The notes below the pieces were generated by a model that saw only the letters and a program-made list of their open reading frames with translations, had not been told where the DNA came from and made no database searches. Shown in pieces: positions 158 to 12,640 of a DNA stretch of 24,000 nt (position 1 is its first letter; every line of letters begins with the position of its first letter). Source of the DNA: Lachnospiraceae bacterium (lineage in GTDB: Bacteria > Bacillota > Clostridia > Lachnospirales > Lachnospiraceae); contig JAKSHY010000002.1 in the NCBI GenBank assembly GCA_024399135.1, forward strand, positions 116,238 through 140,237, in the 5' to 3' direction. The position numbers were made by a program, and so were the translations under genes.

Positions 158-1231
158 TTAGTTTGCCAAAACAGTTTCTCGCGTTTCATCAAACACCTTA
201 ATAAACAAATCCCCTCTTTGACTCTTCAATTCTTCGATATTTGTAATATCAGAATACTTACCAAAATCTTTTTCTTCGATTTCTTCATATTTGGTGATTT
301 GTGATTTTAACCAAGCATCTGTTATTTCATTTAAGGCTTTACTCTTTTTAGCAATATTGTCTGTTTTAGGCAGCAATGCCAGATTCGTTAAACTATCCTT
401 CATAATAGAGTTTGCCATATTGTTTCCACCAAACTTTTCTTGTGGAATTATGTGGTCAACTTCAATCTTATCTGCCGAACTATTATAAGGCTCAATATTC
501 TTTAATGAATAGTAATAATACAAAATAGGTGTCATCGTTTTCTGTGTTACTGGCTGACCATTATAAGAACCAGATAGAGCACCTTCTATAAATGTCTTCC
601 ACTCTTGCTTTGCAACTGGTAAAATTCTGTTCTTCCAGTCTTTAATATCTGCAGACATTTTGGAGTCACCAGAGCCTCTCCACACCTTAGTAGAATATTC
701 GAAAACCAATCTATCAAAAAGAATTCGAGCATCTCGCTGAAACGCCTTGTATTGCGCGCCACTCACAGTTGGACAACCCTTATCTTTCCAATCCTCTAAC
801 AAAATAGCTATAAACTCCAAAGAAATCGCATTTCCAAGTAATTTAGCCATCGGCTTATCCCATGACTGAAAATACTTAAAAAATGTATCCGTCATAAGAA
901 TTTCGCATACTTTATTTATATCATTTACCAAGTCATCAATATCCGTGTCCCAATTAATATTTTTACCTTTTTCTAAACTTGAAACACTTTGCGCTGACAT
1001 TCCTTGTGCGCATACTGAACTGATAAGTTTGAAGCCTAAAGTTATTTTATCCATAGAAATTTCATCATGAATAACTGTTGAATCAAATATCAATCGTTTC
1101 TTATCAATTCTTGAAATCAATGTGGCAGCTAAATCCCATCTAACAACTCCATCCGGCTCTTCAACTCCCAAATTTTTATACATATCTTTTACAAGAAGCA
1201 AACGGTAACAACAAGTAACATATGGTAACAA
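158..1231 (-). CDS. DUF1524 / HNH-type nuclease domain protein (GmrSD C-terminal-half-like), apparently missing the N-terminal DUF262 half; possibly a 5'-truncated remnant
   Basis: The C-terminal motif VDHIIPQ...(N)...NLALLPKTDNIAKKSK is typical of the DUF1524 His-Me finger. No DGQQR/ParB-like DUF262 motif is present. The first 10 track codons are encoded by the GTAACA decamer repeats, so the first plausible ATG is 1183 (MYKNLG), and it has no convincing SD. Confidence 0.6.
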   Translation of the reverse strand: MLPYVTCCYRLLLVKDMYKNLGVEEPDGVVRWDLAATLISRIDKKRLIFDSTVIHDEISMDKITLGFKLISSVCAQGMSAQSVSSLEKGKNINWDTDIDDLVNDINKVCEILMTDTFFKYFQSWDKPMAKLLGNAISLEFIAILLEDWKDKGCPTVSGAQYKAFQRDARILFDRLVFEYSTKVWRGSGDSKMSADIKDWKNRILPVAKQEWKTFIEGALSGSYNGQPVTQKTMTPILYYYYSLKNIEPYNSSADKIEVDHIIPQEKFGGNNMANSIMKDSLTNLALLPKTDNIAKKSKALNEITDAWLKSQITKYEEIEEKDFGKYSDITNIEELKSQRGDLFIKVFDETRETVLAN

Positions 1232-1371: not shown

Positions 1372-3396
1372 CTAACTTTCCGCTAATTCATTTTCCATTT
1401 CTTTTATTTTGTCTAAATTAACTTCGAAGAGTTTATAATACTTCTTTTCTAAGTGCTTTTTTCTTTTCTCTGTCAATATATTAACTACTTCAAAAATATT
1501 CACTTTCTTATTCGTTATAAAAGAAGCAACACACCCAACAAATGGTGGAACTATCGCTAATCCACTAATTAAATATGTCTTGTAAGTAGCATTTAAAAAA
1601 ATATATGCAATAATAATTCCAATATAATATAAAACAACTAAGATCCTAAATCCATTTTTAAATACTTTTGTTCTCTTATCTATCATTCTATCTGCTTTTT
1701 CTTTTATCTTTAAGCAATCAGAATAACGTTTTCTCAACTCCGTCTTAGCTTTTTCTCTTAATTCTTCTTTTTCTAAAATAAGTTGATTTTTTTCGGAGCT
1801 ATTATTCAATATATTCTCGTCTTTTTTCTTTAAAATGGCTTTGTATTCCTCAATTGCCCTATCTCGTTCTTTTAATTCACTATCTAATCTTTCTTTCTCT
1901 GATTGATATATTGACAAATCTTTTTCGGACAAGAAATCTAACACATCGTCCAGAACTCTTATTTCTATTTCTTCTGGTTTCTTTGCTTCTTCTCTTAACG
2001 AAAGAATGACATCCGCCATCTGTTCAGCGTCAAGTTTTTTATTCCGATAATCATCATAAGCCTTTTCATATTTTTCTGAGACCGATTGTGATATCATACT
2101 TGACAGCACGATTTTAGCCTTTAGCAAGACGCTGAAATTTGAAGGAAAATCTTTTGCACCAAATCCTTTATTTAAATCAAACCATAATCTATTAGTAATA
2201 CCACTCATATTAATTGCTAACGGAATTTTTCTTACTGCCATATCATTAGAAATAAACAACATTTTGCCAACTTCAGTTAGTACAATATGCTGACAGGATT
2301 TCAAGTCATCTACATCATTTTCTTTTCTTAAAATATTTACATAATTAATATGTTTTATATATCTAAATTTATCATCCGAAAGCTCATATTTTGCAATACA
2401 TTCCTCGCTTTCAAGATTATATTTCTGATTAGCCTCTTCATAATAGTTATATCCATCAGCTTGAACTATTCCTTTTGCTTTAAGTAAGCTAAAGAAAGCA
2501 GCTTTCTTTTCAATAACATCTGCTGCAGTCTTACAACCGTTTACAATCGTGTTCATCGCATAATTTTCGACATCTACAATATCATTTCCAAGAACTATAT
2601 TTTCTGCTTTTGTAAAAAATTTATCGATCTCAATTTTAACATCTTCAAAATACCTCACTTTTATATTATGTGAGCCACTTTTACTATTCATTTCATATAT
2701 TAGGCTAAGCAAATCCTCCACATGTCTTTTAAATACCTCTCCATTATATCCGGCCAAGTGAAATAAAATCTCTATCTCAGCATATAATATAATAGGTTTA
2801 TTCCAAGCCCGTCTTTCTGAAACATTACTATTATGATTAATGCCCGCATACAAAACAGCGCCTTCTTTAATTGTATTAATCATTGCCATAATATCTTTAT
2901 CATCCTGTTTTTCTACAATATAAGCACTTATGACATCTGAAAAATGGTTTCCATTTGATTCATCCAATAAAAAAGCACAAAATTCCTTAACTAATTGTTC
3001 TTTTTCTTTTGCAGATAATTCTCCTCTTTTTTCTTCTGCAAATTTTTCAAGTTCACGTATTACATTATCGCTTTTCGAAATAGCATTTTGACATTGTTCA
3101 TCAATTGAAGAATTTGGAAGTTTACTTATATCAACTGTATATTGATTATTCTCTCTCGATACATAATCTATTTTCTTTAAAGAAGTCTGAATAACATAAT
3201 CTGGAATACAAAATCCATACTGTGCTCGAATTTTTTCAGAAATATCCGTAATTCCAAAACAATATAAACCTGTACCTATAACTATTCCCTCAACAAAACG
3301 TGAAACAATAAAATAAATATCACTTTTTCCATCATTATATAATTGTCTAAATGTAACCAAAGACGCTAAATTTTTAACTTCTGTACTTAATCTCAT
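1372..3396 (-). CDS. Hypothetical 674-aa protein: globular N-terminal two-thirds with no motif I recognise, a long charged coiled-coil, then two C-terminal TM helices
   Basis: ATG at 3396 (MRLSTEV) lies 13 nt after the hsdR TAG (3412..3410), with GAAGGAA between them. The track start at 3429 overlaps hsdR and has no SD. The heptad-like K/E-rich region is SEKERLDSELKERDRAIEEYKAILKKKDE...EKEELREKAKTELRKRY. The hydrophobic segments are FRILVVLYYIGIIIAYIFL and LISGLAIVPPFVGCVASFI (about nt 1500-1650). Confidence 0.8.
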   Translation of the reverse strand: MRLSTEVKNLASLVTFRQLYNDGKSDIYFIVSRFVEGIVIGTGLYCFGITDISEKIRAQYGFCIPDYVIQTSLKKIDYVSRENNQYTVDISKLPNSSIDEQCQNAISKSDNVIRELEKFAEEKRGELSAKEKEQLVKEFCAFLLDESNGNHFSDVISAYIVEKQDDKDIMAMINTIKEGAVLYAGINHNSNVSERRAWNKPIILYAEIEILFHLAGYNGEVFKRHVEDLLSLIYEMNSKSGSHNIKVRYFEDVKIEIDKFFTKAENIVLGNDIVDVENYAMNTIVNGCKTAADVIEKKAAFFSLLKAKGIVQADGYNYYEEANQKYNLESEECIAKYELSDDKFRYIKHINYVNILRKENDVDDLKSCQHIVLTEVGKMLFISNDMAVRKIPLAINMSGITNRLWFDLNKGFGAKDFPSNFSVLLKAKIVLSSMISQSVSEKYEKAYDDYRNKKLDAEQMADVILSLREEAKKPEEIEIRVLDDVLDFLSEKDLSIYQSEKERLDSELKERDRAIEEYKAILKKKDENILNNSSEKNQLILEKEELREKAKTELRKRYSDCLKIKEKADRMIDKRTKVFKNGFRILVVLYYIGIIIAYIFLNATYKTYLISGLAIVPPFVGCVASFITNKKVNIFEVVNILTEKRKKHLEKKYYKLFEVNLDKIKEMENELAES

Positions 3397-3409
3397 TTTC
3401 TCATTCCTT

Positions 3410-6400
3410 CTACGCTGCCGCATTGGCATTTATTGTCTCTATAACCTTCCTAATTCCCATCCACACATTCAGATCTGTAAATATTTCAACCACACTTCCC
3501 TGGTCTGTAAAAGGTGATTCCTGAAGAACAGAAAGATCCTTCATCATTCCGTTGTGAACGATATATTCCACTATCTGATTCACAAAATATATCTGCCTGC
3601 TATCAAGGCTTGTGCTTGTCAGATATTCTGAGAAAGCTTCCTTGGCAGCATTCATATCAAGACCAACGATCTCACGAACTAATTCGCCTAATGGCTTCTG
3701 TCCATACTCATGCTCATAATCCTGCTTAGTACCAACCTCATTCCAAAGGATATCCTCAAGTGTTGATATATCAGAACTTGTAAGAGGCTGATTAGTCTTA
3801 AGCTTTGCAATTACAACATTATCTTGATGTTGCCTAATATAGAATTCAGCTTTAGCTTTGTAATTCTTCAATTCATCATTTTCAAGCTCAGATTCCTTCC
3901 ATTCCACAGACAAAAGATCATCTTCAAAATTCGTATCATAACGAAGCTTATGCTTCGGAATATACTTCATAAGATCACGGAGTTTTTCTCTGATTTCTTC
4001 AAATTCATTGATACCGGCATTATCAAGATAATCTGTATTTAGAATCTTCTGAATCAAATCGCTCTGCATCTGAATCTCAGGAATATTTGCCACACTGGCA
4101 ATACCTTCTACCTTCTTATAAAGGTCGCTTCTTGCTCGTGTATATTTCTTGCCTACAAGATAAGCAAGTTCTATGCCATACATAAGTGCATCAAATCTTA
4201 CTGCACTCGCCTCATCATCATCCGGCAAAATGAGTGGTGCCAGTTCTTCCCTGACAATCAATGTGTCCTCATAGGTAAGACACTGATAATTAGTTTCCGC
4301 AGAATATAAATCCACATATTTCAAATGCTGACGAACTGCAAAATTGTCTCTTGGTAACTCCTGCACCTTTTCAGACATTTGTTTTACCAAAAGATTTCTA
4401 TATGCAATGAGTCTTTCAATCTGATAATCAATATCCTGCAATTTATAAGAAATCTCAAATTTCAAGTTAAAGATAGCTCCCTGTAGAGCAATCATATTGG
4501 CAGTTGCTTTACCTTTATTCATTCGGAAGAATTCAAAGTTTCCGCAGAAATCAAATATATAGAACTTCTGCTTATCTTCCCCATCAATAAGTCCAGGACA
4601 AAGTCTGGTACCACGTCCAATCATCTGCCAGAATTTTGCCTTACTCATAACCTTCTTGAAGAATACAAGGTTTATTACTTCCGGTACATCAATACCGGTA
4701 TCCAGCATATCAACAGAGATAGCAATCTGTGGCATCTTCTTTGGATCAGAGAATTCATCTATAGCACTCTGGGCATAGGTCATATAGTTATCAATCACCT
4801 TTGCATAATCCGGAAGATGTGGATACTCCTTATGGAATACTTCAAGTATCTTTTCAGCATGATCATGATTCTTTGCAAATATAATGGTTTTACCAATCTT
4901 CTGACCATAATCTATCTTGATTCCATTGGTCATAAGTGTATGGAGAACCTGACGAATTGTATCCTCATTGAAAATCCATGTATTTAATGCAGATGAACCT
5001 ATAGACTCCGGAAGCTCACCATTTTCATCCTCAAAGGTAGCCTCATACTCTTCTTTATCTTTCTCTGATAAATCATCATAAACAATACCCTGTTCAATGA
5101 ATTTCAGTTTTGATTCTACCGAAACATAGTCAACAAGATATCCATCCTTTACTGCCTGAGCTAAATCGTAACCATAGGTAGGCACACCATTTTCCAGTTC
5201 AAATACTTCATAAGTATTTTTATCAATTTCATCCTTTGGAGTTGCTGTTAATCCTACCAATGGCGCATCGAAATAGGTAAAAATATCGCGATATTTATTA
5301 TAAATTGATCTATGGGCCTCATCACAGATTACCAGGTCAAAATGGCCACAGGTAAACAGTTTCCCATCGTTATCATTAACCGTATCAATGCAGTTAATCA
5401 TGGTCTGATATGTAGAAAATACGCAGTGAGCGTTATAATTATCTTTTTCCTCACACAGGTTCGTGCATGACAAATTAGGAAGCATATTTACAAAGCTTCT
5501 CTTTGCCTGTGTAACCAGCGAATTTCTATCTGCAAGGAAAAGAATATTCTTTACCCAGCCCGCTTTCAGTAAGCAATCGCAAAGAGCAATAACAGTTCTT
5601 GTCTTACCTGAACCCGTTGCCATTACAAGAAGTGCTTTTCTACGATTCTTCTCGTCAAAGCTATGACATACTGCCTTAATTGCTGATTCTTGATAATAAC
5701 GGCCGGCAATGTTTTTATCTACACTTACATGCTTTAGGCTTGTACGCATAGTAAGCAAATTGAACCACTTCTCCAAATCTCTCTTGGAATAGATTACAGA
5801 GCACTTTCTCTCAGGATATTGGTCATCGATGATATGCGTATCAAATCCATTGGTAAGAAATACAACTGGTCTCCTCTTATATTTCTGTTCCAATAAATCG
5901 GCATATAATTTTGCCTGCTGTCTACCCTTGGATACATCTACGCAGGTCCGTTTTGCTTCAATTACTGCCAATGGCTTATGCATGTCATCGTAAAGTACAT
6001 AGTCTGCATAACCCACTTCTGATTTGTTAGGCATACCCGGAAGCTCTACTTCATTAATCCAGTCCTTTCCTTCGGTCCAGCCTGCATCCATAAGCATAGA
6101 ATCAATATAAAGCTTTCTAGTTTTATACTCAGATAAATCCAATGGCTTTGGAACATAAGTCTGCTGCTGTTCCTGTCTACGGGCAGATAATTCTTCCTTG
6201 AGAGAAGCATTTTCAGCAATCAGCTTCTGTAAGTCAAGTTCCTGCTGTGCATTCTTCTCCTGCTCCTTAGCAAGTTCTTCTTTGGTCTGCGCTGCAGTTT
6301 CTTTAGATTTTTTCGCTTTTTCTATACGGTCACTAATGATCTTCTTATCAAAGACACGTTCTTCATACTGGTCAGAGTAGCAATAAGCAATAAAATCCAA

Positions 6401-6754
6401 ATAAATAAACAGATTCTCCAGGCATAGCATGGCCTCATCTCTGCCAAGCTTCTTGTTACTGTGAGCCACATTATTGCCGCAACGACGAATATAATCCATA
6501 CGCTTCCAAAGATCAGCACCTATAATCTGTCTGTATTCTTCTGCATTCATAAGGCTCTGCAAATTATCCTGGTAAGGCATCTCCAGTTCCTTATCCACGG
6601 AATACATCCATTTCAGAGCGAACTCCATCGCCATGCGGCTATTAATAATACTAGCCTCCGGATCCATAAGAATAATCTTCTCAGCTGATATTGCCACATC
6701 CTCAAAGGAAGCGAATTTCGATTCATTTTTCAAATAATCAAAGTTGGTTATCAT
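3410..6754 (-). CDS. hsdR: Type I restriction endonuclease R subunit (N-terminal DUF4145-like domain, coiled-coil linker, PD-(D/E)xK nuclease, SF2 helicase, EcoEI_R_C-like tail)
   Basis: Motifs seen: YADYVLYD...VIEAKR (nuclease), MATGSGKTRT (motif I), VICDEAHRS (DEAH), GLTATP (III), QMIGRGTR (VI). ATG at 6754 (MITNFDYL) has GGAGG 9 nt upstream. The track start at 6763 is TTG. Confidence 0.95.
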   Translation of the reverse strand: MITNFDYLKNESKFASFEDVAISAEKIILMDPEASIINSRMAMEFALKWMYSVDKELEMPYQDNLQSLMNAEEYRQIIGADLWKRMDYIRRCGNNVAHSNKKLGRDEAMLCLENLFIYLDFIAYCYSDQYEERVFDKKIISDRIEKAKKSKETAAQTKEELAKEQEKNAQQELDLQKLIAENASLKEELSARRQEQQQTYVPKPLDLSEYKTRKLYIDSMLMDAGWTEGKDWINEVELPGMPNKSEVGYADYVLYDDMHKPLAVIEAKRTCVDVSKGRQQAKLYADLLEQKYKRRPVVFLTNGFDTHIIDDQYPERKCSVIYSKRDLEKWFNLLTMRTSLKHVSVDKNIAGRYYQESAIKAVCHSFDEKNRRKALLVMATGSGKTRTVIALCDCLLKAGWVKNILFLADRNSLVTQAKRSFVNMLPNLSCTNLCEEKDNYNAHCVFSTYQTMINCIDTVNDNDGKLFTCGHFDLVICDEAHRSIYNKYRDIFTYFDAPLVGLTATPKDEIDKNTYEVFELENGVPTYGYDLAQAVKDGYLVDYVSVESKLKFIEQGIVYDDLSEKDKEEYEATFEDENGELPESIGSSALNTWIFNEDTIRQVLHTLMTNGIKIDYGQKIGKTIIFAKNHDHAEKILEVFHKEYPHLPDYAKVIDNYMTYAQSAIDEFSDPKKMPQIAISVDMLDTGIDVPEVINLVFFKKVMSKAKFWQMIGRGTRLCPGLIDGEDKQKFYIFDFCGNFEFFRMNKGKATANMIALQGAIFNLKFEISYKLQDIDYQIERLIAYRNLLVKQMSEKVQELPRDNFAVRQHLKYVDLYSAETNYQCLTYEDTLIVREELAPLILPDDDEASAVRFDALMYGIELAYLVGKKYTRARSDLYKKVEGIASVANIPEIQMQSDLIQKILNTDYLDNAGINEFEEIREKLRDLMKYIPKHKLRYDTNFEDDLLSVEWKESELENDELKNYKAKAEFYIRQHQDNVVIAKLKTNQPLTSSDISTLEDILWNEVGTKQDYEHEYGQKPLGELVREIVGLDMNAAKEAFSEYLTSTSLDSRQIYFVNQIVEYIVHNGMMKDLSVLQESPFTDQGSVVEIFTDLNVWMGIRKVIETINANAAA

Positions 6755-6780
6755 AAGGCACAACCTCCCAACACTCTAAA

Positions 6781-7305
6781 CTATTTAAACAATTCAGGTT
6801 CTTCATTGTACAAATCAATTAACCATGGTTGTGGGACATATACAAGTATCATTTCATTATCCCAACCAAGTGAAACAGCCTGATCAGGTTGATGTATAAA
6901 GAGTCCATTTAATAAATACACAGTGTCACCTGAATTTCTGTCCAATTTAATTGCTTTCTCTTTGCTACGCAAAAGTTTACATACTATTTTCATTTGCTCT
7001 GGACTTAACTTTTGTAGTTTCTTTCTTTGATTCTCCTTGAATTTCTTATTTTTTCTTTTCGAACATATATAAGAAAATATTGATGAAATAGCTAAAGTAA
7101 AAATCAAAGACAGACTAAGTAAGAAAATAATACCAATTATTTGCTTCCACATATCAGGCAAGTTATTCAGTGACATTTTTTCAAGAATTTCTATTGGAAG
7201 AAACAATAGCATGCCTGACAATATTGCTACAGCAATGAGTGCCGGTGTTATTTTCTTAAAATTATCAAATGTTTTCTCTGCTATACTATCAACCGATATA
7301 TTCAT
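6781..7305 (-). CDS. Two-TM membrane protein with a C-terminal soluble domain; resembles the superinfection-exclusion SieB family (PF14163) from memory, unverified
   Basis: TM segments: ITPALIAVAILSGMLLFLPI and IIGIIFLLSLSLIFTLAISSIF. These are followed by a basic stretch KRKNKKFKENQRKK, then LSPEQMKIVCKLL...SGDTVYLLNGLFI...PQPWLIDL. Its ATG directly abuts the upstream stop (TAAATG at 7308..7303). Confidence 0.6.
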   Translation of the reverse strand: MNISVDSIAEKTFDNFKKITPALIAVAILSGMLLFLPIEILEKMSLNNLPDMWKQIIGIIFLLSLSLIFTLAISSIFSYICSKRKNKKFKENQRKKLQKLSPEQMKIVCKLLRSKEKAIKLDRNSGDTVYLLNGLFIHQPDQAVSLGWDNEMILVYVPQPWLIDLYNEEPELFK

Positions 7306-7644
7306 TTATCTTCGACCTTTCTTCATACCTTGTGATATTTGTTGACGAATTTCAGGCATCTTTATAGCTTCAGTCATAAGCGTATTCATCATATCTGCCC
7401 CAAGTTTATTTTCCATTTCCTTCTGCATCAGTTCAAGCTGATGTTTATGCTCGATTTCTTGTTTTTCAAGATCATATTTATGTTTCTCTCGTTCAGTTTC
7501 CAAATCTAATTCATGTTGCTTAATTAACTTTTCAATTTCTCCTTTTGTCTCTTTACGAGATATCATTACAGAAGATATTGCTGCAATTAAAGCACCAAGA
7601 ACTGAAACTATATATGGCATTATTTCTTTGATAATCTCTAACAT
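7306..7644 (-). CDS. Small single-TM protein with a highly charged coiled-coil tail (112 aa), unknown function
   Basis: N-terminal TM segment PYIVSVLGALIAAISSVMI, followed by KETKGEIEKLIKQHELDLETEREKHKYDLEKQEIEHKHQLELMQKEMENK. AGGAG lies 7 nt upstream and overlaps the hsdS stop codon. Confidence 0.75.
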   Translation of the reverse strand: MLEIIKEIMPYIVSVLGALIAAISSVMISRKETKGEIEKLIKQHELDLETEREKHKYDLEKQEIEHKHQLELMQKEMENKLGADMMNTLMTEAIKMPEIRQQISQGMKKGRR

Positions 7645-7653
7645 AACTTTCTC

Positions 7654-8790
7654 CTAACCAAAATATTTTTGCATTAATGAATCAAATAATAACTGTGTCT
7701 CGTCCAATGCCTTCTGCACTACAACTTTTGATTTGTCGACTTGTTTGACAAAATCTGCGAACTGCACTTGTTCGTTCACTGGAACTAGCGGAACTGGTAA
7801 TTCCTTCAACTTATTTAAAGGCAATTGTTTTAGTGTTGACTGATTCGTTGAACCAAACATAAAACGCTGTGCCTCTTCTGTAGTCAAATAATGACTAATA
7901 AATAATCTATCCGCCTTATTTTTATCAATTCTTATTACTGCTAAATTTCTAGTAACATTCATTCCTTTGCATCTTTCATCGCTAAGCATAACCTGCCCTG
8001 GTTGTCCAATAACCTGAACTAGAATTTCATCACCAATTAACCTTGTTTTTTTATACTTACACTCTATATCTGATGCAACCCTGTAAACATTATCTAAGTT
8101 TAAGCTTCCGTTCTTGAAATCAGAAGGTCTTACCATGGGAATACCATCTTCAACATTATCACCTGGTACAACTATTCCGTATGATAATCCAGCACCTTCT
8201 TGAATCAATTCAATAAGTTGCTTTTTCTCATATTCCTGACTTCCAAACAGCTCGACAAATCGGGCTTTGATGAGGTCATCCACAGTCTCTAGTTCTTTTT
8301 TTCGTAAATCAATAATAGATTTTACTTTTTCTATCGAATCAACAATATTGCTTTGTTCTTCCAACACTGGGAATCTAATCAGCATTGATAAAAAATCCGC
8401 ATCCGGTATACTTCTTCGTCTAGCAGTTGTTCCTCGTAATTTTGACTTATAATATTCAATACTTCTCGGAGATCTTAATGCATATTCTAAATATTTAGGA
8501 ATAACCTTGTCTGTATCCACATCCCATATTTTATATGCTGGACTGACAATTCCTTCATCTGCCAATTCCTGAACCGCAAGAACCCCCTCATCGATAGGAA
8601 AGCTCTCCACCAATTGATGTCTAGAAACAACCTGATATGATGACTGATCAACAGATGCTATTTGTTTTTTGAATCTGTCATCTTGGAACATCAATCCTTC
8701 ATGCATAGTCATTGAAAGAACAGAATATTTTTCATTCCCACACTTTTTTACTTTTGCCTTTTTTATAAGTTTTCCAACTTCTATTTCCAT
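7654..8790 (-). CDS. hsdS: Type I restriction-modification specificity subunit with two target-recognition domains
   Basis: The layout is typical of HsdS. The central conserved helix is LRKKELETVDDLIKARFVELFG and the C-terminal conserved helix is VVQKALDETQLLFDSLMQKYFG. The gene lies between hsdM and hsdR. Confidence 0.9.
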   Translation of the reverse strand: MEIEVGKLIKKAKVKKCGNEKYSVLSMTMHEGLMFQDDRFKKQIASVDQSSYQVVSRHQLVESFPIDEGVLAVQELADEGIVSPAYKIWDVDTDKVIPKYLEYALRSPRSIEYYKSKLRGTTARRRSIPDADFLSMLIRFPVLEEQSNIVDSIEKVKSIIDLRKKELETVDDLIKARFVELFGSQEYEKKQLIELIQEGAGLSYGIVVPGDNVEDGIPMVRPSDFKNGSLNLDNVYRVASDIECKYKKTRLIGDEILVQVIGQPGQVMLSDERCKGMNVTRNLAVIRIDKNKADRLFISHYLTTEEAQRFMFGSTNQSTLKQLPLNKLKELPVPLVPVNEQVQFADFVKQVDKSKVVVQKALDETQLLFDSLMQKYFG

Positions 8791-8834: not shown

Positions 8835-10055
8835 TTAAAAGTATTCCGCCAACTTTACTTGTCCTGCCTCATAACTAATCACCAAATTTATACAAGCAAA
8901 AGTCTTAAATGACTTCATTTCAAATAGATCCTCACTTTTCTTCACAAGAAGATTTCTATTATTTTTATCATCAGATAACTTTATCAAATATTTTTTTATG
9001 TTTGTTTTATTTAGACCTTTTATTGGTTTAGGCAAATATCCGTCTATGTACGCATTTACCTGACTGGACGAAAAATCACTTTTCTCGTAATTACATAATG
9101 CATAAAGGACATGATTCAAACCATTTGACTCAGATATATTATCATTGTAGAGTCCACGAATAACCGAATATTCTGCTGCCAATCTTGTTTTCACCCAACC
9201 TTCTTGAGCTTTTATAAATATTTCATCGTTCATTAAAATCTTATCGCTTTCATTGTCGTAATAAGATATAGCAAGGCAATAGCACATTTCATTAACACTC
9301 TGTGGAATACCAGCAGTGCATTTAAGCACATAATTAGATAGATCATCAATCATAGGAACCGTAAAACCACATTCTCTAAACTTTTTAGACACAAAGCTAT
9401 TACATTCTGTATCATTAAAACCTCTAACAGATATTGTTTGAATTCGGCTTGCTATTGTCTGATAATTGGGCATTTTCTCAAAATACTGCATTATACTATT
9501 TGTGGCTCCAATAGCCAAAAAACGAACATTATTTTTTATCATTAGCGGATCATCTGCCATCGTTATAATGCAACTCAAATCCTCTAACATTTTTTCATCG
9601 TTGATAATTGTTTCAAAATTATCTAGCACCACAAGTTGATTTTTATTATCTTGAAGAAACAGCTTAAAAAAATCATTACTTACTTCATATGTTCTACTAG
9701 CCTCAAGATTACCAGCTGCAATGCCTGCATTTATCCCTGCTTCTTTGGTTTCGATTCTTTCCACTAACACTTCTGAATATAATGCAGAAAAATATTGATA
9801 GAACCCACCTTTCATTTTTACATCAGACAAATTGACAAATTTATATTTTCCTGCAACACTTTTCATAATATGAGTTGTTAGCCATGTCTTACCGCATCCA
9901 CTTTCTCCAGCAACAAATACATATTTATATCTATTTATCGCTCTTAAGAGTTCTTTTTCATAATATTCTCTTACTATGTAGCTTTTCTCATTAAATTCTT
10001 CCCTATTTCGAAAAATTGTATTTATTTTTTCTTCTGTTATACTCATTATCAACAA
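8835..10055 (-). CDS. P-loop NTPase (AAA+/ORC-Cdc6-like or AAA_22-like ATP-binding protein) inserted between hsdM and hsdS
   Basis: Walker A is VAGESGCGKTW and Walker B-like is QLVVLDNFE. A sensor-1-like FLAIGATN is followed by IASRI. The C-terminal roughly 150 aa could be a winged-helix or lid domain. The track start is TTG; an ATG at 10046 (MSITEEK) is the more likely start. Confidence 0.75.
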   Translation of the reverse strand: MLIMSITEEKINTIFRNREEFNEKSYIVREYYEKELLRAINRYKYVFVAGESGCGKTWLTTHIMKSVAGKYKFVNLSDVKMKGGFYQYFSALYSEVLVERIETKEAGINAGIAAGNLEASRTYEVSNDFFKLFLQDNKNQLVVLDNFETIINDEKMLEDLSCIITMADDPLMIKNNVRFLAIGATNSIMQYFEKMPNYQTIASRIQTISVRGFNDTECNSFVSKKFRECGFTVPMIDDLSNYVLKCTAGIPQSVNEMCYCLAISYYDNESDKILMNDEIFIKAQEGWVKTRLAAEYSVIRGLYNDNISESNGLNHVLYALCNYEKSDFSSSQVNAYIDGYLPKPIKGLNKTNIKKYLIKLSDDKNNRNLLVKKSEDLFEMKSFKTFACINLVISYEAGQVKLAEYF

Positions 10056-10069
10056 CCTGTCTTCTTTGA

Positions 10070-11575
10070 TTAATGTATTTTTATCAATTTCTCAAGTTCT
10101 TCCATTTCCTTGCCAATCTCCATCTCAATCTCACGGATGTTAGCCATAATTTCCGATGTAGGTGGGTACTCTACTGCCACATATTCCACCTCTTTATATT
10201 TATTGATGCTGAGATCATAATCATTGTCTTCTATTTCCTTCTTAGGCACCATGAACGACTTATCTGTACGCTTTCTGTCCTGTTCACCATCAAGATTCTT
10301 AAATCTCTGAATGATGTCAGGAATATCGTTGTCTGCCACTACTGAACGCTTATCATCTAAGCTAAATCCGTCTGCAGTCATATCATAGAACCATACATTA
10401 TCTGTTCCGCCATGCTCTGTCTTTGTAAATACAAGAATAGCGGTCGATACCCCGGCATATGGTTTAAATACACCAGAAGGCATTGAAATAACTGCCTCTA
10501 ATCTCTGATTCTCAACGATTTCTTTTCTAATTGCTTTGTGTGCAGTAGAAGAACCAAACAACACGCCATCAGGTACGATACATGCACATCTTCCACCTAT
10601 TCTTAACATACGCACAAACAATGCCAGAAACAGTAATTCTGTCTTCTTGGTACTGCAAACCTTAAGAAGATCTGCCGATACAATATCTGCATCCAAGCTT
10701 CCTTTGAATGGTGGATTTGCTAATATCAATGAATATTTATCCTTATCAGGATTCTGATCAGATAAGCTATCTCTATATTCAATAAAAGGACTTTCCACTC
10801 TATGATTCATCATATTCATAGCACCGATACGAAGCATGGTTCTATCCATATCAAAACCATGAAACATATGATTCATGAAATGGTCCTTCTTCTGTTTATC
10901 GTAGAAGATTTCTTCCTTCTTGTTATTCCACAGATATTCCCCAGCTTCCACAAGGAAACCAGCTGTACCACAAGATGGATCACAAATAATATCATCTGCT
11001 TTAGGATCCATCAGTTCTACCATCATCTTAATAATATGACGAGGCGTTCTAAACTGACCATTCACGCCTGCTGTAGCAAGCTTTGAAAGTAAATACTCAT
11101 ACACATCACCTCTGGCATCAGAATCATTTAACTTTGCCATCTGCGTGTAAAGTTCATCCATAGCATCTACAACCTTAGAAAGCATAAGCGGTGTAGGAAG
11201 CTTGAAGATAGCATCGTCCATATACTTTGAAAATGCACTGTCCTTACTGGCATGAAGATTCTTTATAAATGGGAATACCATTTCCTGCATAACAGAATAC
11301 ATTCTATCAGCGGGATAATCTCTAAACACTGACCACTTAAACTGTGTACCGTCGATAGTTCTTTCACCAATCTTTACTTCCTTGGCAAATACGCTCTCAT
11401 ATGGAAGACCAAGCATCGCGCTTTCCTTAGCGTGTGTATTATCTGATACATCTAGGTCATGGATAAACATAAGATATGTCATCTGCTCAATCACATCCAG
11501 TGGATTGGTAAGTCCACCAGTCCAGAAAATTTCCCATAAGCTATCAATTCTATTTTTCAATTCACCTGTTATCAT
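10070..11575 (-). CDS. hsdM: Type I restriction-modification N6-adenine DNA methyltransferase subunit
   Basis: HsdM_N-like N-terminus (ELKNRIDSLWEIFWTGGL...MTYLMFI). AdoMet motif ICDPSCGTAGFL. Catalytic motif LANPPFKGS. Confidence 0.95.
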   Translation of the reverse strand: MITGELKNRIDSLWEIFWTGGLTNPLDVIEQMTYLMFIHDLDVSDNTHAKESAMLGLPYESVFAKEVKIGERTIDGTQFKWSVFRDYPADRMYSVMQEMVFPFIKNLHASKDSAFSKYMDDAIFKLPTPLMLSKVVDAMDELYTQMAKLNDSDARGDVYEYLLSKLATAGVNGQFRTPRHIIKMMVELMDPKADDIICDPSCGTAGFLVEAGEYLWNNKKEEIFYDKQKKDHFMNHMFHGFDMDRTMLRIGAMNMMNHRVESPFIEYRDSLSDQNPDKDKYSLILANPPFKGSLDADIVSADLLKVCSTKKTELLFLALFVRMLRIGGRCACIVPDGVLFGSSTAHKAIRKEIVENQRLEAVISMPSGVFKPYAGVSTAILVFTKTEHGGTDNVWFYDMTADGFSLDDKRSVVADNDIPDIIQRFKNLDGEQDRKRTDKSFMVPKKEIEDNDYDLSINKYKEVEYVAVEYPPTSEIMANIREIEMEIGKEMEELEKLIKIH

Positions 11576-11578
11576 GAA

Positions 11579-12640
11579 TTAATCCTCCTTATCCCAATTC
11601 CATGTGTATTTAGTATATCTTCCGCCACCGATTTTTGTAATCTTTCCTTCTTTTACAAGTTCCGTCAGGGTTCTTTGTACTGTAGTCTGGCTAATCCCCG
11701 GTGTATTCTCCATAATCTCTGTCTTGGTTATGGTTCCAAGATGATTCTTTATCAATTCCTCTATCCTATCCGGCTTTGGAACCTTCTTTTCTTCTACTAC
11801 CTTTGCTCTGTCAAAGAATTCTCTATAGGCAGCTGTGATGATTCCAAGAACATATTTTACAAATGGTTCATAATCATTCTCATCTTCTATCCAGCCAGTA
11901 GAGCTTTCCTTCAACGCTTCGTAGTAGCTATCCTTTGTCTTTTCAATCAGCTTCTCCAAACTGATATATTTTCCAACGATATAATCATTCTGATATAGCA
12001 ATAATAATGTCAGTAATCTACTCATTCTGCCATTACCATCATTGAAAGGATGAATACATAAAAAATCGATAATGAACATTGGCATAATCAAGAGCGAATC
12101 CGCCTCACTTCTATTGATAGCCTCGTTGTAAGCAGCGCACAGATTAGTAATAGCTTCTGGTGTTTCCCATGCAGGTAATGGTCGGAATCTCACGAACTTA
12201 TTGCCTTGATTATCCTCTTCCTCAATTACATTATCTGCCGCCTTGAATTTTCCACCCTTTGCTGCATTTTCAAATCGATATAAATCTCTATGCAACTGCA
12301 AGATAAATGTATCTCTAACCGGAATATGCGGAAAGCTTTCATGAATCGTATTAAGCACATCTCTATATCCGGCAATCTCTCGCTCATTTCTGGTTCTTGG
12401 CATTGTCTTATCCAAAACAATCTTCTTTAATCGATCGTCTGATGTATAAATACCTTCAATTTTATTAGAACTCTCGGTACTCTGAATCTTGGCTACTTCA
12501 ACAAGACTCTCAAGAACATCCGCATGCTTTTCTGCAATTAAACGCTGCTCTCCTCTGTATTCATGAATCGTTGTAAGATAATTCACAATGTCCGGAGTTA
12601 ATAACTTTTTCCATTTTTCTGTATAATCAAAACTTCTCAT
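11579..12640 (-). CDS. Fic/DOC family protein (probable AMPylase) with an N-terminal inhibitory-helix motif and a C-terminal winged-HTH
   Basis: Fic motif HPFNDGNGRMSRLL. The [ST]xxxE[GN] inhibitory motif appears as SNKIEG. The C-terminal ISQTTVQRTLTELVKEGKITKIGGGRYTKY is HTH-like. GAGG lies 8 nt upstream of the ATG. The stop is 3 nt from the hsdM ATG, with AAGGAGGA inside the fic 3' end. Confidence 0.9.
   Translation of the reverse strand: MRSFDYTEKWKKLLTPDIVNYLTTIHEYRGEQRLIAEKHADVLESLVEVAKIQSTESSNKIEGIYTSDDRLKKIVLDKTMPRTRNEREIAGYRDVLNTIHESFPHIPVRDTFILQLHRDLYRFENAAKGGKFKAADNVIEEEDNQGNKFVRFRPLPAWETPEAITNLCAAYNEAINRSEADSLLIMPMFIIDFLCIHPFNDGNGRMSRLLTLLLLYQNDYIVGKYISLEKLIEKTKDSYYEALKESSTGWIEDENDYEPFVKYVLGIITAAYREFFDRAKVVEEKKVPKPDRIEELIKNHLGTITKTEIMENTPGISQTTVQRTLTELVKEGKITKIGGGRYTKYTWNWDKED

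What the first reader, a model, noticed from the sequence alone, without database searches (positions are those of the whole stretch)
1372..3396. 674-aa orphan protein translationally coupled to hsdR: globular head, coiled-coil stalk, two-TM anchor
- The gene starts 13 nt after the hsdR stop, with its SD in the gap, so it is made from the same mRNA as the restriction subunit.
- I recognise no catalytic or nucleotide-binding motif in the first about 470 aa.
- After that comes roughly 110 aa of K/E-rich heptad-like sequence, then two hydrophobic helices and a basic tail.
- A cytoplasmic sensor-like head tethered to the membrane through a coiled coil is the layout of several abortive-infection effectors that kill by membrane damage.
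- Nothing in a canonical type I system requires such a protein.

This is my strongest single-gene candidate for an undescribed, RM-linked defence component.
Basis: partly seen in the sequence, partly recalled or inferred. Interest (0 to 1): 0.8.

Follow-up and report, generated by a model that had tools for sequence, protein, structure and literature searches.

The report
Bacterial MCU-like channel in defence island
The gene after hsdR belongs to a large unnamed bacterial family that joins a conserved cytoplasmic head to a membrane module related to the mitochondrial calcium uniporter pore; the family recurs inside restriction operons and defence islands, so it is probably a new membrane-channel immune effector.

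Summary
The gene is real: minus strand, 1372-3396, 674 aa. It starts 13 nt after the hsdR stop, with an AAGGA Shine-Dalgarno sequence in the gap. Its layout is a head, a roughly 100-residue helix, two TM helices and a basic helical tail.

It is not an orphan. A profile search finds 1624 cluster representatives (707 at E<1e-30) across many phyla. None is named, and none hits Pfam or PADLOC.

- About half of the species-level members carry a W-D/N-x-x-E filter. One has the exact WDIMEPVTY.
- Their tail profile hits MCU structures at E=7e-17.
- The window's clade aligns to that profile (hhalign 99.6%), but its filter is degenerate (LNATYKTY).

Context:
- 14 of 61 loci carry type I RM genes on the same strand, often in the order hsdM-hsdS-X-hsdR.
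- Other copies sit beside type II/IV restriction genes, on plasmids, or at a prophage end.
- Some copies are in housekeeping contexts.

Best reading: a self-contained sensor-channel abortive-infection effector, not an obligate RM subunit. Function is untested, and the head matches no solved or viral structure by Foldseek.

The parts
1372..3396 (-). Gene X: 674-aa head-stalk-2TM protein. It is identical to the NCBI hypothetical protein MCQ2080454.1 from a Lachnospiraceae MAG.
3397..3409 (-). 13-nt gap between the hsdR stop and the X start, containing an AAGGA Shine-Dalgarno sequence
3133..3318 (-). Residues 27-88: winged-helix-like element (alpha-beta-alpha-alpha-beta-beta)
   Evidence: AF2 secondary structure. 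Only weak Foldseek hits to small DNA-binding winged-helix proteins.
1927..3102 (-). Residues 99-490: helical bundle plus alpha/beta core. Family-wide invariant polar residues are E178, E209, N218, N237, D293, K297, N327, R357, K410 and E475. This is the putative sensor or ligand-binding head.
   Evidence: No Foldseek match at E<0.001 in the PDB or BFVD.
1651..1899 (-). Residues 500-582: K/E-rich coiled-coil stalk, continuous with TM1. It corresponds to CC1 of MCU.
1588..1650 (-). TM1, residues 583-603
1576..1587 (-). Extracytoplasmic loop TYKT. It occupies the position of the MCU W-D-x-x-E-P filter, which is degenerate here (LNATYKTY).
1513..1575 (-). TM2, residues 608-628, with the clade-conserved PP motif
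1375..1512 (-). Residues 629-674: basic juxtamembrane segment and helical tail. It corresponds to CC2 of MCU and carries the conserved K-x-Y-x-x-[YF]-x-[IV] motif.
3410..6763 (-). hsdR: N-terminal DUF4145, then HSDR_N, ResIII/helicase and EcoEI_R_C domains
7654..8790 (-). hsdS
10070..11575 (-). hsdM

Best explanation
Gene X is a member of a large, horizontally mobile, unnamed bacterial family of single-polypeptide sensor-channel proteins.

Architecture:
- A conserved cytoplasmic head: a winged-helix-like element, a helical bundle and an alpha/beta core with an invariant polar pocket.
- A roughly 100-residue coiled-coil helix joins the head directly to TM1.
- The module stalk-TM1-short outer loop-TM2-C-terminal helix is homologous to the pore module of the mitochondrial calcium uniporter (CC1-TM1-WDxxEP-TM2-CC2).

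Inferred mechanism:
- The protein oligomerises in the cytoplasmic membrane. MCU is a tetramer.
- The channel stays closed until the head detects an infection-associated cue.
- It then opens a cation path that lets Ca2+ or other cations in and collapses membrane potential. This stops the infected cell, which is abortive infection.
- The system is self-contained. The gene rides in restriction operons and defence islands as cargo. In this window it is co-transcribed with hsdR as a second line of defence.

Shown versus inferred:
- Shown: the architecture, the family, MCU homology of the tail (direct for filter-bearing members, transitive for the window's clade), and the association with RM systems.
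- Inferred: oligomerisation, gating, ion flux, the trigger, and the defence phenotype.
- In the window's clade the acidic filter is lost, so Ca2+ selectivity is not expected. A non-selective leak, or only an anchoring role, remains possible.
For: Family:
- 252 clusters in the homologue search.
- 1624 representatives at E<1e-3 and 707 at E<1e-30.
- 75 species-level loci across Bacillota, Bacteroidota, Spirochaetota, Proteobacteria, Chloroflexota, Desulfobacterota, Cloacimonadota and Omnitrophota.

Structure:
- AF2 gives pLDDT 83 for the full length and 87 for the head (pTM 0.84). Helix 500-600 runs into TM1.

MCU homology:
- 33 of 231 full-length members in hand carry W-[DNSE]-x-x-E-x-x-T-[YWF] between the TM helices. 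P0174 has the exact WDIMEPVTY.
- The tail profile A4 hits 13 distinct MCU sequences in the PDB at E=7e-17 to 4e-11. The next hit has E=0.098.
- Pfam MCU matches 23 of 29 tails. The best scores 51 bits against a cut-off of 30.8.
- Human MCU against P0174 by BLASTP: E=2e-10, 26% identity over 140 aa.
- The window's tail scores 48 bits (E=1.7e-14) on the A4 HMM.
- The window-clade tail profile against A4 by hhalign: 99.6%, E=1.4e-24, 174 columns.
- The A4 HMM hits no non-family ORF among about 1300 ORFs.

Context:
- 14 of 61 loci carry type I RM genes on the same strand. The order is hsdM-hsdS-X-hsdR in L052 and L062 (L032 and L068 add 1-3 genes between X and hsdR), and hsdR-X in the window, L084 and L089.
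- The RM-embedded L052 and L062 have intact WDIMEQ[YW]TY filters.
- Other neighbours are NgoMIV, Eco47II+GmrSD, McrBC, and FokI/Mrr with a PLD-helicase.
- Copies occur on plasmids beside recombinases and Hok.
- In E. coli the gene is in 4 of 5426 genomes, at the ssrA-side end of a lambdoid prophage.
- The window's gene array is all defence-related: SoFic, a type I RM, SieB, a STAND-like ATPase and a GmrSD_C-like gene.
- X has 28.9% GC against 38.1% for hsdR, which fits separate acquisition.
Against: - The window's own protein has none of the W, D or E filter residues.
- It gets no direct Pfam MCU hit. Its clade profile reaches MCU in the PDB only at E=0.034, and human MCU against that profile gives 26% hhalign probability.
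- About 77% of loci have no type I RM within 10 kb.
- The Streptococcus lineage sits at a fixed site after uvrB. Other copies lie after ftsH, or among metabolic or signalling genes.
- The head is more conserved than the tail: 0.5-0.7 against 0.25-0.33 column identity. This is unusual for a sensor of fast-evolving phage proteins. It would also fit an enzymatic head with the hairpin acting only as an anchor.
- The other tail variants (Proteobacteria, some Clostridia and Bacteroidota) show only local similarity to the MCU-type tail.
- There is no experiment, no multimer model, and no structural match for the head.
Confidence: 0.55

Rival explanations
1. A physiological, regulated cation (Ca2+) channel of bacteria: a housekeeping or accessory ion-homeostasis or signalling protein. 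Its proximity to RM genes would only reflect insertion into variable genome regions.
For: - The MCU-type pore has an intact Ca2+-filter motif in many members.
- Bick et al. 2012 suggested that bacterial MCU homologues may be calcium channels (from my own memory of the abstract).
- Some loci are in non-defence contexts.
- The head is highly conserved, which fits a conserved cellular ligand.
Against: - The distribution is patchy: 4 of 5426 E. coli genomes, with plasmid and prophage-end copies.
- The gene is repeatedly embedded between hsdS and hsdR in different phyla.
- The filter has been lost in a whole clade that still conserves the rest of the tail.
Confidence: 0.17
2. An accessory subunit or guard of the type I RM enzyme, analogous to PrrC. 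It would bind the Hsd complex and fire when a phage anti-restriction protein inactivates that complex, or it would tether or regulate the enzyme at the membrane.
For: - It is co-transcribed with hsdR, with a 13-nt gap here.
- The same hsdR-X adjacency occurs in a relative with 54% identity (L089) and in L084.
- It occupies the PrrC-like slot between hsdS and hsdR in L052, L062, L032 and L068.
Against: - Most homologues, including close ones (L003, L012, L090, L092), have no type I RM nearby.
- Its position relative to the hsd genes is not fixed.
- Its GC content differs from that of the hsd genes.
- It has no similarity to PrrC or RloC.
Confidence: 0.1
3. A membrane-anchored enzyme or nucleic-acid-binding protein. 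The conserved head would be the effector (for example a nuclease or nucleotide-processing domain), and the 2-TM hairpin would only localise it.
For: - The head is the most conserved part and has an invariant polar constellation: E178, E209, N218, N237, D293, K297, N327, R357 and K410.
- The N-terminus is winged-helix-like.
- The tail varies, and three or more hairpin types exist.
- The window's clade lacks the filter.
Against: - No catalytic family is detected by Pfam, NCBIfam, PDB profile search or Foldseek.
- The coiled coil, two TM helices and C-terminal helix are retained throughout the family, and the tail is under constraint within clades.
- The tail's homology to a true pore module is specific.
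Confidence: 0.13
4. An addiction or exclusion module of mobile elements. It would be a toxin-like membrane protein that stabilises the island, plasmid or prophage, or excludes competitors, rather than defending against phage.
For: It is found on conjugative or mobilisable plasmids next to Hok/Gef and recombinases, in integrase islands and at a prophage end.
Against: - No partner antitoxin gene is conserved next to it.
- Many copies are chromosomal and sit inside RM operons.
Confidence: 0.05

Closest known systems
Mitochondrial calcium uniporter pore subunit MCU (Pfam PF04678; structures 6DNF, 6WDN, 6K7X and others)
   Same: - The module order is the same: CC1, TM1, short loop with W-D-x-x-E-P-x-T-Y, TM2, CC2.
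- The large soluble domain sits on the matrix or cytoplasmic side.
- Sequence similarity is significant for filter-bearing family members: profile E=7e-17, and pairwise E=2e-10 against human MCU.
- The window's tail is homologous to those members.
   Different: - This family is bacterial.
- Its roughly 490-residue head (winged-helix-like element plus alpha/beta core) was not matched to anything, including MCU, by profile or Foldseek searches.
- The family is mobile and found in defence islands.
- The window's protein lacks the W, D and E filter residues.
- No MICU or EMRE partners were looked for or seen.
Sensor-fused membrane-pore immune effectors (Cam1, Chp1, Csx28, Cap15, PycTM-type)
   Same: A cytoplasmic sensing domain is coupled to a small TM module that depolarises the cell as an abortive-infection output. 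For Chp1, a tetrameric pore that depolarises the membrane is described in the abstract of bioRxiv 10.64898/2026.08.05.743128 (listed). The other examples are from my own knowledge.
   Different: - There is no CARF, SAVED or cyclic-nucleotide-binding domain.
- No messenger synthase is linked, so X is a single-gene unit.
- The pore module is of MCU type.
- X has no PADLOC or Pfam match to these effectors.
PrrC / RloC and other genes embedded in type I RM operons (TgvAB; the HEC/PDC candidates of Payne et al. 2024)
   Same: The gene is nested in or appended to hsd operons, sometimes exactly between hsdS and hsdR. The 'guilt by embedding' logic applies.
   Different: - It has no ABC-ATPase or anticodon-nuclease domains.
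- It is not restricted to RM loci.
- It is not among the PADLOC HEC/PDC models.
CorA / Mrs2 Mg2+ channels
   Same: The general layout matches: cytoplasmic alpha/beta head, very long stalk helix continuous with TM1, short outer loop, TM2 and a basic C-terminus. This comparison rests on my own knowledge of CorA structures.
   Different: There is no GMN motif, and no Pfam CorA hit even at E<=5. Significant similarity is to MCU, not to CorA.

Membership tests
MCU (PF04678, mitochondrial calcium uniporter pore domain) | Topology: coiled coil, TM1, short loop, TM2, coiled coil, with both termini on the same (matrix or cytoplasmic) side | tested here: met
   Hydropathy analysis and the AF2 model give helix 500-600, TM helices 583-603 and 608-628, and helices 634-673. 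The flanks are basic, which fits the positive-inside rule.
MCU (PF04678, mitochondrial calcium uniporter pore domain) | Significant sequence similarity of the protein itself to the MCU profile | tested here: not met
   The window protein has no Pfam hit at E<=1. Its clade's tail profile against PDB MCU gives E=0.034. Human MCU against that profile gives hhalign probability 26%.
MCU (PF04678, mitochondrial calcium uniporter pore domain) | Homology through intermediate sequences (same family, full-length alignment) | tested here: met
   The window tail scores 48 bits (E=1.7e-14) on the A4 HMM. A5 against A4 gives 99.6%, E=1.4e-24. A4 against MCU structures gives E=7e-17. Pfam MCU matches 23 of 29 A4 tails, the best at 51 bits against a cut-off of 30.8. 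P0174 aligns with the family profile over its full length at E=6e-170.
MCU (PF04678, mitochondrial calcium uniporter pore domain) | W-D-x-x-E-P selectivity filter at the start of TM2 | tested here: not met
   The window has FLNATYKTYLIS, with W, D and E all replaced. The filter is present in about 34 of 74 species-level family members, including the RM-embedded L052 and L062.
MCU (PF04678, mitochondrial calcium uniporter pore domain) | Tetrameric assembly and Ca2+ conductance | not testable with these tools
Conductance needs an experiment.
Known or candidate anti-phage systems (PADLOC-DB v2.0.0, including HEC and PDC models) | Match to any model of the library | tested here: not met
   No families match at E<=1. 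The library does hold HEC and PDC models, because neighbouring genes hit them.
PrrC-type RM-embedded guard | Obligate residence inside a type I RM operon | tested here: not met
   Type I RM genes lie within 10 kb in only 14 of 61 loci.
PrrC-type RM-embedded guard | ABC-ATPase N-domain plus anticodon-nuclease C-domain | tested here: not met
   There are no Pfam, NCBIfam or PADLOC hits.
CorA/Mrs2 | GMN motif after TM1 and a CorA profile match | tested here: not met
   There is no GMN motif in the loop. CorA is absent from the window protein's own Pfam table at E<=5 and from the 25 families most often matched by the 36 members; only those 25 of 77 matched families were listed.
SLATT and other 2-TM conflict-system effector domains (Pfam) | Profile match | tested here: not met
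   No SLATT family is in the window protein's own Pfam table at E<=5 or among the 25 families most often matched by the 36 members, and none appears among the 23 families matched by the 29 tails at E<=0.01.

The most novel reading that the evidence does not exclude
Prokaryotic MCU-type channels are immune effectors. A conserved winged-helix/alpha-beta cytoplasmic sensor would gate an MCU-fold pore that floods the infected cell with cations. The pore of the eukaryotic mitochondrial calcium uniporter would then descend from, or share ancestry with, this mobile bacterial defence module. That would add MCU to the list of eukaryotic death and signalling components with roots in bacterial immunity, alongside gasdermins, TIR, cGAS/STING and NLR-like STAND proteins.
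Probability: 0.3. Interest if true: 0.92.

Novelty: new variant of a known kind. Interest (0 to 1): 0.8.

Why it matters
**A function for bacterial MCU homologues.** From memory, bacterial MCU homologues have been noted since 2012. Pittis et al. 2020 (PMC7423614) include bacterial sequences in their MCU tree. I found no paper that gives them a function, an architecture or a genomic context. No paper in the searchable library links MCU with phage defence.

**A testable hypothesis.** This finding supplies an architecture (a novel conserved head plus an MCU pore) and an ecological context (restriction operons, defence islands, plasmids and prophage ends). It also names specific residues to mutate.

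**If it holds**, it would:
- add a new effector type, an ion-selective channel of a eukaryote-like family, to bacterial immunity;
- give a bacterial model for MCU gating;
- bear on the origin of mitochondrial Ca2+ uptake.

**Scope.** For this window alone, the gene is one more uncharacterised cargo gene of a type I RM locus that is unusually rich in embedded genes.

Tried and rejected
**Family and fold searches**
- Pfam, NCBIfam and PADLOC on the protein gave nothing useful.
- Foldseek of the full and head-only AF2 models against the PDB and BFVD gave no match at E<0.001. Only short winged-helix-like fragments appeared, plus very weak exonuclease/XRN-like hits that I do not rely on.

**Ideas considered and dropped**
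- The head as a PIN-, Toprim- or PD-(D/E)xK-type domain, judged from motifs. Nothing supports this.
- CorA-like and SLATT-like tails. There is no profile support.
- A conserved partner gene. Neighbour clustering found none beyond the hsd genes and, in one Streptococcus lineage, uvrB.
- The downstream GmrSD_C-like gene as a partner. It has no homologue next to other family members.

**Searches that led nowhere**
- The tail alignment A4 against the 5.8-billion-protein collection returned no hits. The same profile scores family members at over 100 bits locally, so I treat this as a tool artefact, not a result.
- Literature searches for bacterial MCU homologues in defence found nothing.
- Bick et al. 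2012 could not be retrieved.
- tRNA and Rfam scans of the window were empty.
Full report
**1. The observation**

The ORF lies on the minus strand at 1372-3396 and encodes 674 aa.
- hsdR (3410-6763, minus strand) ends ...GCG GCA GCG TAG. Thirteen bases follow (AAGGAATGAGAAA) and then the ATG, so an AAGGA Shine-Dalgarno sequence sits 8 nt upstream of the start.
- A longer in-frame start at 3429 exists. The family alignment and the deposited protein (P0001, 674 aa, 100% identical, 'hypothetical protein', Lachnospiraceae MAG) support the start at 3396.
- No terminator-like site separates hsdR from the gene on that strand. Co-transcription is therefore likely. Strict translational coupling is not shown.
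- Residues 471-582 are K/E/L-rich.
- Hydropathy analysis gives two TM segments, 583-603 and 608-628, joined by a four-residue loop. A basic helical tail follows, 629-674.
- Coordinates of all sub-parts were checked by translation.

**2. It is not an orphan**

- A word-indexed search found 252 clusters, all unnamed. They include Mogibacterium pumilum and Streptococcus gordonii proteins.
- An exhaustive profile search found 1624 representatives at 50% identity with E<1e-3, and 707 with E<1e-30.
- A scan of one genome per species returned 75 loci in at least eight phyla.
- The protein itself has no Pfam, NCBIfam or PADLOC match. The PADLOC copy does hold the HEC/PDC 'guilt-by-embedding' candidates of Payne et al. 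(bioRxiv 10.1101/2024.01.29.577857). The family is therefore not among them.

**3. Structure**

- AlphaFold2 with a 36-sequence alignment gave pLDDT 83 for the full length. The head alone, residues 1-495, gave pLDDT 87 and pTM 0.84.
- The model shows, in order:
  - an N-terminal alpha-beta-alpha-alpha-beta-beta element typical of winged helices (residues 27-88);
  - a bundle of long helices (99-187);
  - an alpha/beta core (about 198-420);
  - three more helices;
  - a single helix from 500 to 600 that runs straight into TM1;
  - TM2 and two C-terminal helices.
- Foldseek against the PDB (full model and head) and against BFVD gave nothing at E<0.001.
- Across 66 full-length species-level members, the head is clearly more conserved than the tail. 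Invariant polar residues are E178, E209, N218, N237, D293, K297, N327, R357, K410 and E475. There is also a W405-x4-KGFG motif.

**4. The tail is an MCU-type pore module**

First hints:
- The whole-family profile's best PDB hit was MCU, weakly (E=0.027).
- Pfam MCU hit 7 of 36 members, best E=1.3e-7.

Filter motif:
- In the tail alignment, a subset carries W-[DNSE]-x-[ML]-E-[PKQ]-x-T-[YW] between the TM helices.
- 33 of 231 full-length sequences in hand match this motif.
- P0174 (Lewinella sp. 4G2, WP_068217522.1, 'hypothetical protein') has WDIMEPVTY, identical to the eukaryotic selectivity filter.

Statistical support:
- A profile of 29 such tails (A4) hits 13 distinct MCU sequences in the PDB (human, fungal and others) at E=7e-17 to 4e-11. 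The matches cover CC1, TM1, the filter, TM2 and CC2. The next hit has E=0.098.
- Pfam MCU matches 23 of 29 tails. The best scores 51.4 bits against a cut-off of 30.8.
- Human MCU against P0174 by BLASTP gives E=2e-10 and 26% identity over 140 residues.
- The A4 HMM hits no non-family protein among about 1300 ORFs from the fetched loci.

Caveat: the A4 sequences were picked by a motif that resembles the filter. The matches, however, extend over roughly 125-155 positions, far beyond the motif.

**5. Where the window's protein stands**

- Its tail (502-673) aligns end to end with the A4 HMM at 48 bits, E=1.7e-14.
- A profile of 18 tails from its own clade (A5) matches A4 at hhalign probability 99.6%, E=1.4e-24, over 174 columns.
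- Directly against MCU it is not significant. There is no Pfam hit. A5 against the PDB puts MCU first but at E=0.034. Human MCU against A5 gives 26% probability.
- Its loop reads FLNATYKTYLIS. The W, D and E are all gone, and only the T-Y is kept.
- Close relatives often keep one acidic residue (LDFEKQ, LDEPRK, LPESNK).
- The rest of the tail is conserved within the clade: ADxKI before TM1, the PP in TM2, and KKxYxEYxI after TM2. The module is therefore under constraint, but it is unlikely to be Ca2+-selective.
- A head-based neighbour-joining tree gives three groups:
  - a large one with intact filters (mostly Bacteroidota and others), with an internal subclade that has lost the filter;
  - the window's Bacillota/Treponema group with degenerate filters;
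  - a mostly proteobacterial group with different short 2-TM tails that show only local similarity.

**6. Genomic context**

After removing duplicates there are 74 loci, and 61 of them have at least 12 kb of sequence.

Type I RM association:
- The largest neighbour clusters are hsdR, hsdM and hsdS.
- 14 of the 61 loci carry type I RM genes within about 10 kb on the same strand.
- The orders seen are:
  - hsdM-hsdS-X-hsdR in L052 and L062 (one extra gene between hsdM and hsdS in L062), and the same with 1-3 further genes between X and hsdR in L032 and L068;
  - hsdR-X in the window and L084;
  - hsdR-hsdM-..-hsdS-X in L081 and L067.
- L089, a relative with 54% identity, repeats the window's arrangement. 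There, a DUF4145-type hsdR is followed by X after a roughly 23-nt gap, in an operon that also holds AbiH and AbiJ-like genes.
- L052 and L062, both RM-embedded, have intact WDIMEQ[YW]TY filters.
- Expected background (my estimate from general knowledge of RM frequency): on the order of 1% of random 20-kb windows would contain a type I RM locus. The observed 23% is a large excess. This was not tested against a computed background.

Other neighbours:
- NgoMIV (L012).
- An Eco47II RM pair plus GmrSD_N in an integrase island (L003).
- McrBC plus a type I RM (L001).
- FokI/Mrr and a PLD-helicase (L092).

Mobile-element copies:
- Conjugative or mobilisable plasmids of Citrobacter and Pantoea, next to a recombinase, a transposase or Hok.
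- 4 of 5426 E. coli genomes, between ssrA and the tail-fibre end of a lambdoid prophage.

Counter-examples:
- The oral Streptococcus lineage always has the gene 33 nt after uvrB.
- Other copies lie after ftsH, among signalling genes, or in an array of small unannotated ORFs.

The window itself:
- Every gene of the roughly 12.5-kb same-strand array is defence-related. In order: SoFic (PADLOC E=4e-42), hsdM, a STAND-like ATPase, hsdS, a small TM/coiled-coil protein, a SieB-family protein, hsdR, X, and a GmrSD_C-like His-Me protein.
- X has 28.9% GC, against 38% for hsdR and hsdM. This fits separate acquisition.

**7. Interpretation**

- Established here: the family, its architecture, the MCU homology of the tail (direct for half the family, transitive for this gene), and a strong but not exclusive association with restriction systems and mobile elements.
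- Most economical mechanism: a single-protein sensor-channel. The conserved head senses a cue, the stalk transmits it to the pore helices as in MCU, and cation influx or depolarisation aborts the infection.
- The topology fits. The bacterial cytoplasm corresponds to the mitochondrial matrix. An open MCU-type pore would therefore conduct cations inward, down the membrane potential.
- Purely inferred: oligomeric state, gating, ion, trigger and phenotype.
- The high conservation of the head argues for a conserved ligand (a nucleic acid or a small molecule) rather than a variable phage protein. It also keeps alive the rival in which the head is the effector and the hairpin only an anchor.
- A PrrC-like dependence on the RM enzyme is unlikely as a general rule, because most homologues lack type I RM neighbours. 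It could still apply to this clade's hsdR-X pairs.

**8. Novelty**

- Bacterial MCU homologues have been noted before. Bacterial sequences appear in the tree of Pittis et al. 2020 (PMC7423614). Bick et al. 2012 mention them from my memory; the paper was not retrievable.
- I found no description of their domain architecture, their head domain or their genomic context.
- No paper in the searchable library links MCU with phage defence or conflict systems.
- RefSeq calls even the WDIMEPVTY-bearing member 'hypothetical protein'.
- I rate this a new variant of known kinds (MCU-family channels, and sensor-fused membrane effectors of bacterial immunity), with high interest.
- The main caveat is that this window's copy has a degenerate filter and no function has been tested.

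Noticed in passing
window 6781-7305 and 7306-7644 (minus strand): Two small membrane-protein genes are embedded between hsdS and hsdR. One is a SieB-family superinfection-exclusion protein (174 aa, Pfam E=8e-21). The other is a 112-aa protein with an N-terminal TM helix and a coiled coil, with no family match. Both have lower GC (30-32%) than the hsd genes.
   Followed up: partly
window 8835-10055 (minus strand): A 406-aa STAND/AAA-type ATPase is inserted between hsdM and hsdS. Its matches are weak: nSTAND3 and AAA_16 in Pfam, and the PADLOC candidate PDC-S59 at E=1e-6.
   Followed up: partly
window 11579-12640 (minus strand); promoter-like site 12727-12698: The first gene of the same-strand array is a SoFic-type Fic/DOC protein with a C-terminal HTH (PADLOC SoFic E=3.8e-42). 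The best sigma-70-like site in the region (11 of 12 matches) lies just upstream. The whole 12.5-kb array may therefore be one transcription unit.
   Followed up: no
window 3410-6763, residues 27-117 of HsdR: HsdR carries an N-terminal DUF4145 domain, and residues 5-217 weakly hit PADLOC PDC-M16A. The hsdR next to the 54%-identical homologue in L089 has the same DUF4145 fusion.
   Followed up: no
window 158-1183 (minus strand) and intergenic 1184-1371: The downstream gene encodes a 341-aa protein with a DHIIP...N His-Me finger like the C-terminal (DUF1524) half of GmrSD (weak HNH_4 and PADLOC HEC-05 hits). It lacks the DUF262 half. Just upstream are four GTAACA repeats at roughly 10-nt spacing (1199-1241) and a 10-bp inverted repeat (1261-1282), in a GC-richer spacer (41.5%).
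   Followed up: partly
L002, L006, L015-L018, L020, L026 (Streptococcus oralis/gordonii group): In oral streptococci the family member always sits immediately 3' of uvrB (33-nt gap in L002 and L006) and before DUF1697 or NUDIX genes. This is a fixed chromosomal site with no defence genes nearby.
   Followed up: partly
L095 1-22028 (Lewinella sp. 4G2): The member with the exact WDIMEPVTY filter lies in a run of about 17 small same-strand ORFs, mostly without Pfam hits. They are separated by intergenic gaps mostly of about 250-700 nt (one of about 2 kb). This looks like a cassette-type variable region.
   Followed up: no
L094 12025-14043 (E. coli MS21324 chromosome): A proteobacterial-type family member is present in only 4 of 5426 complete E. 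coli genomes. It lies between ssrA and the tail-fibre/Lom end of a lambdoid prophage, the usual place for prophage cargo genes.
   Followed up: partly
L001 15261-21968 (Mogibacterium pumilum): Next to the family member are McrBC and a type I RM locus with several hsdS fragments around a tyrosine recombinase. This is a phase-variable hsdS shufflon arrangement. L089 has a similar hsdS-integrase-hsdS arrangement.
   Followed up: no
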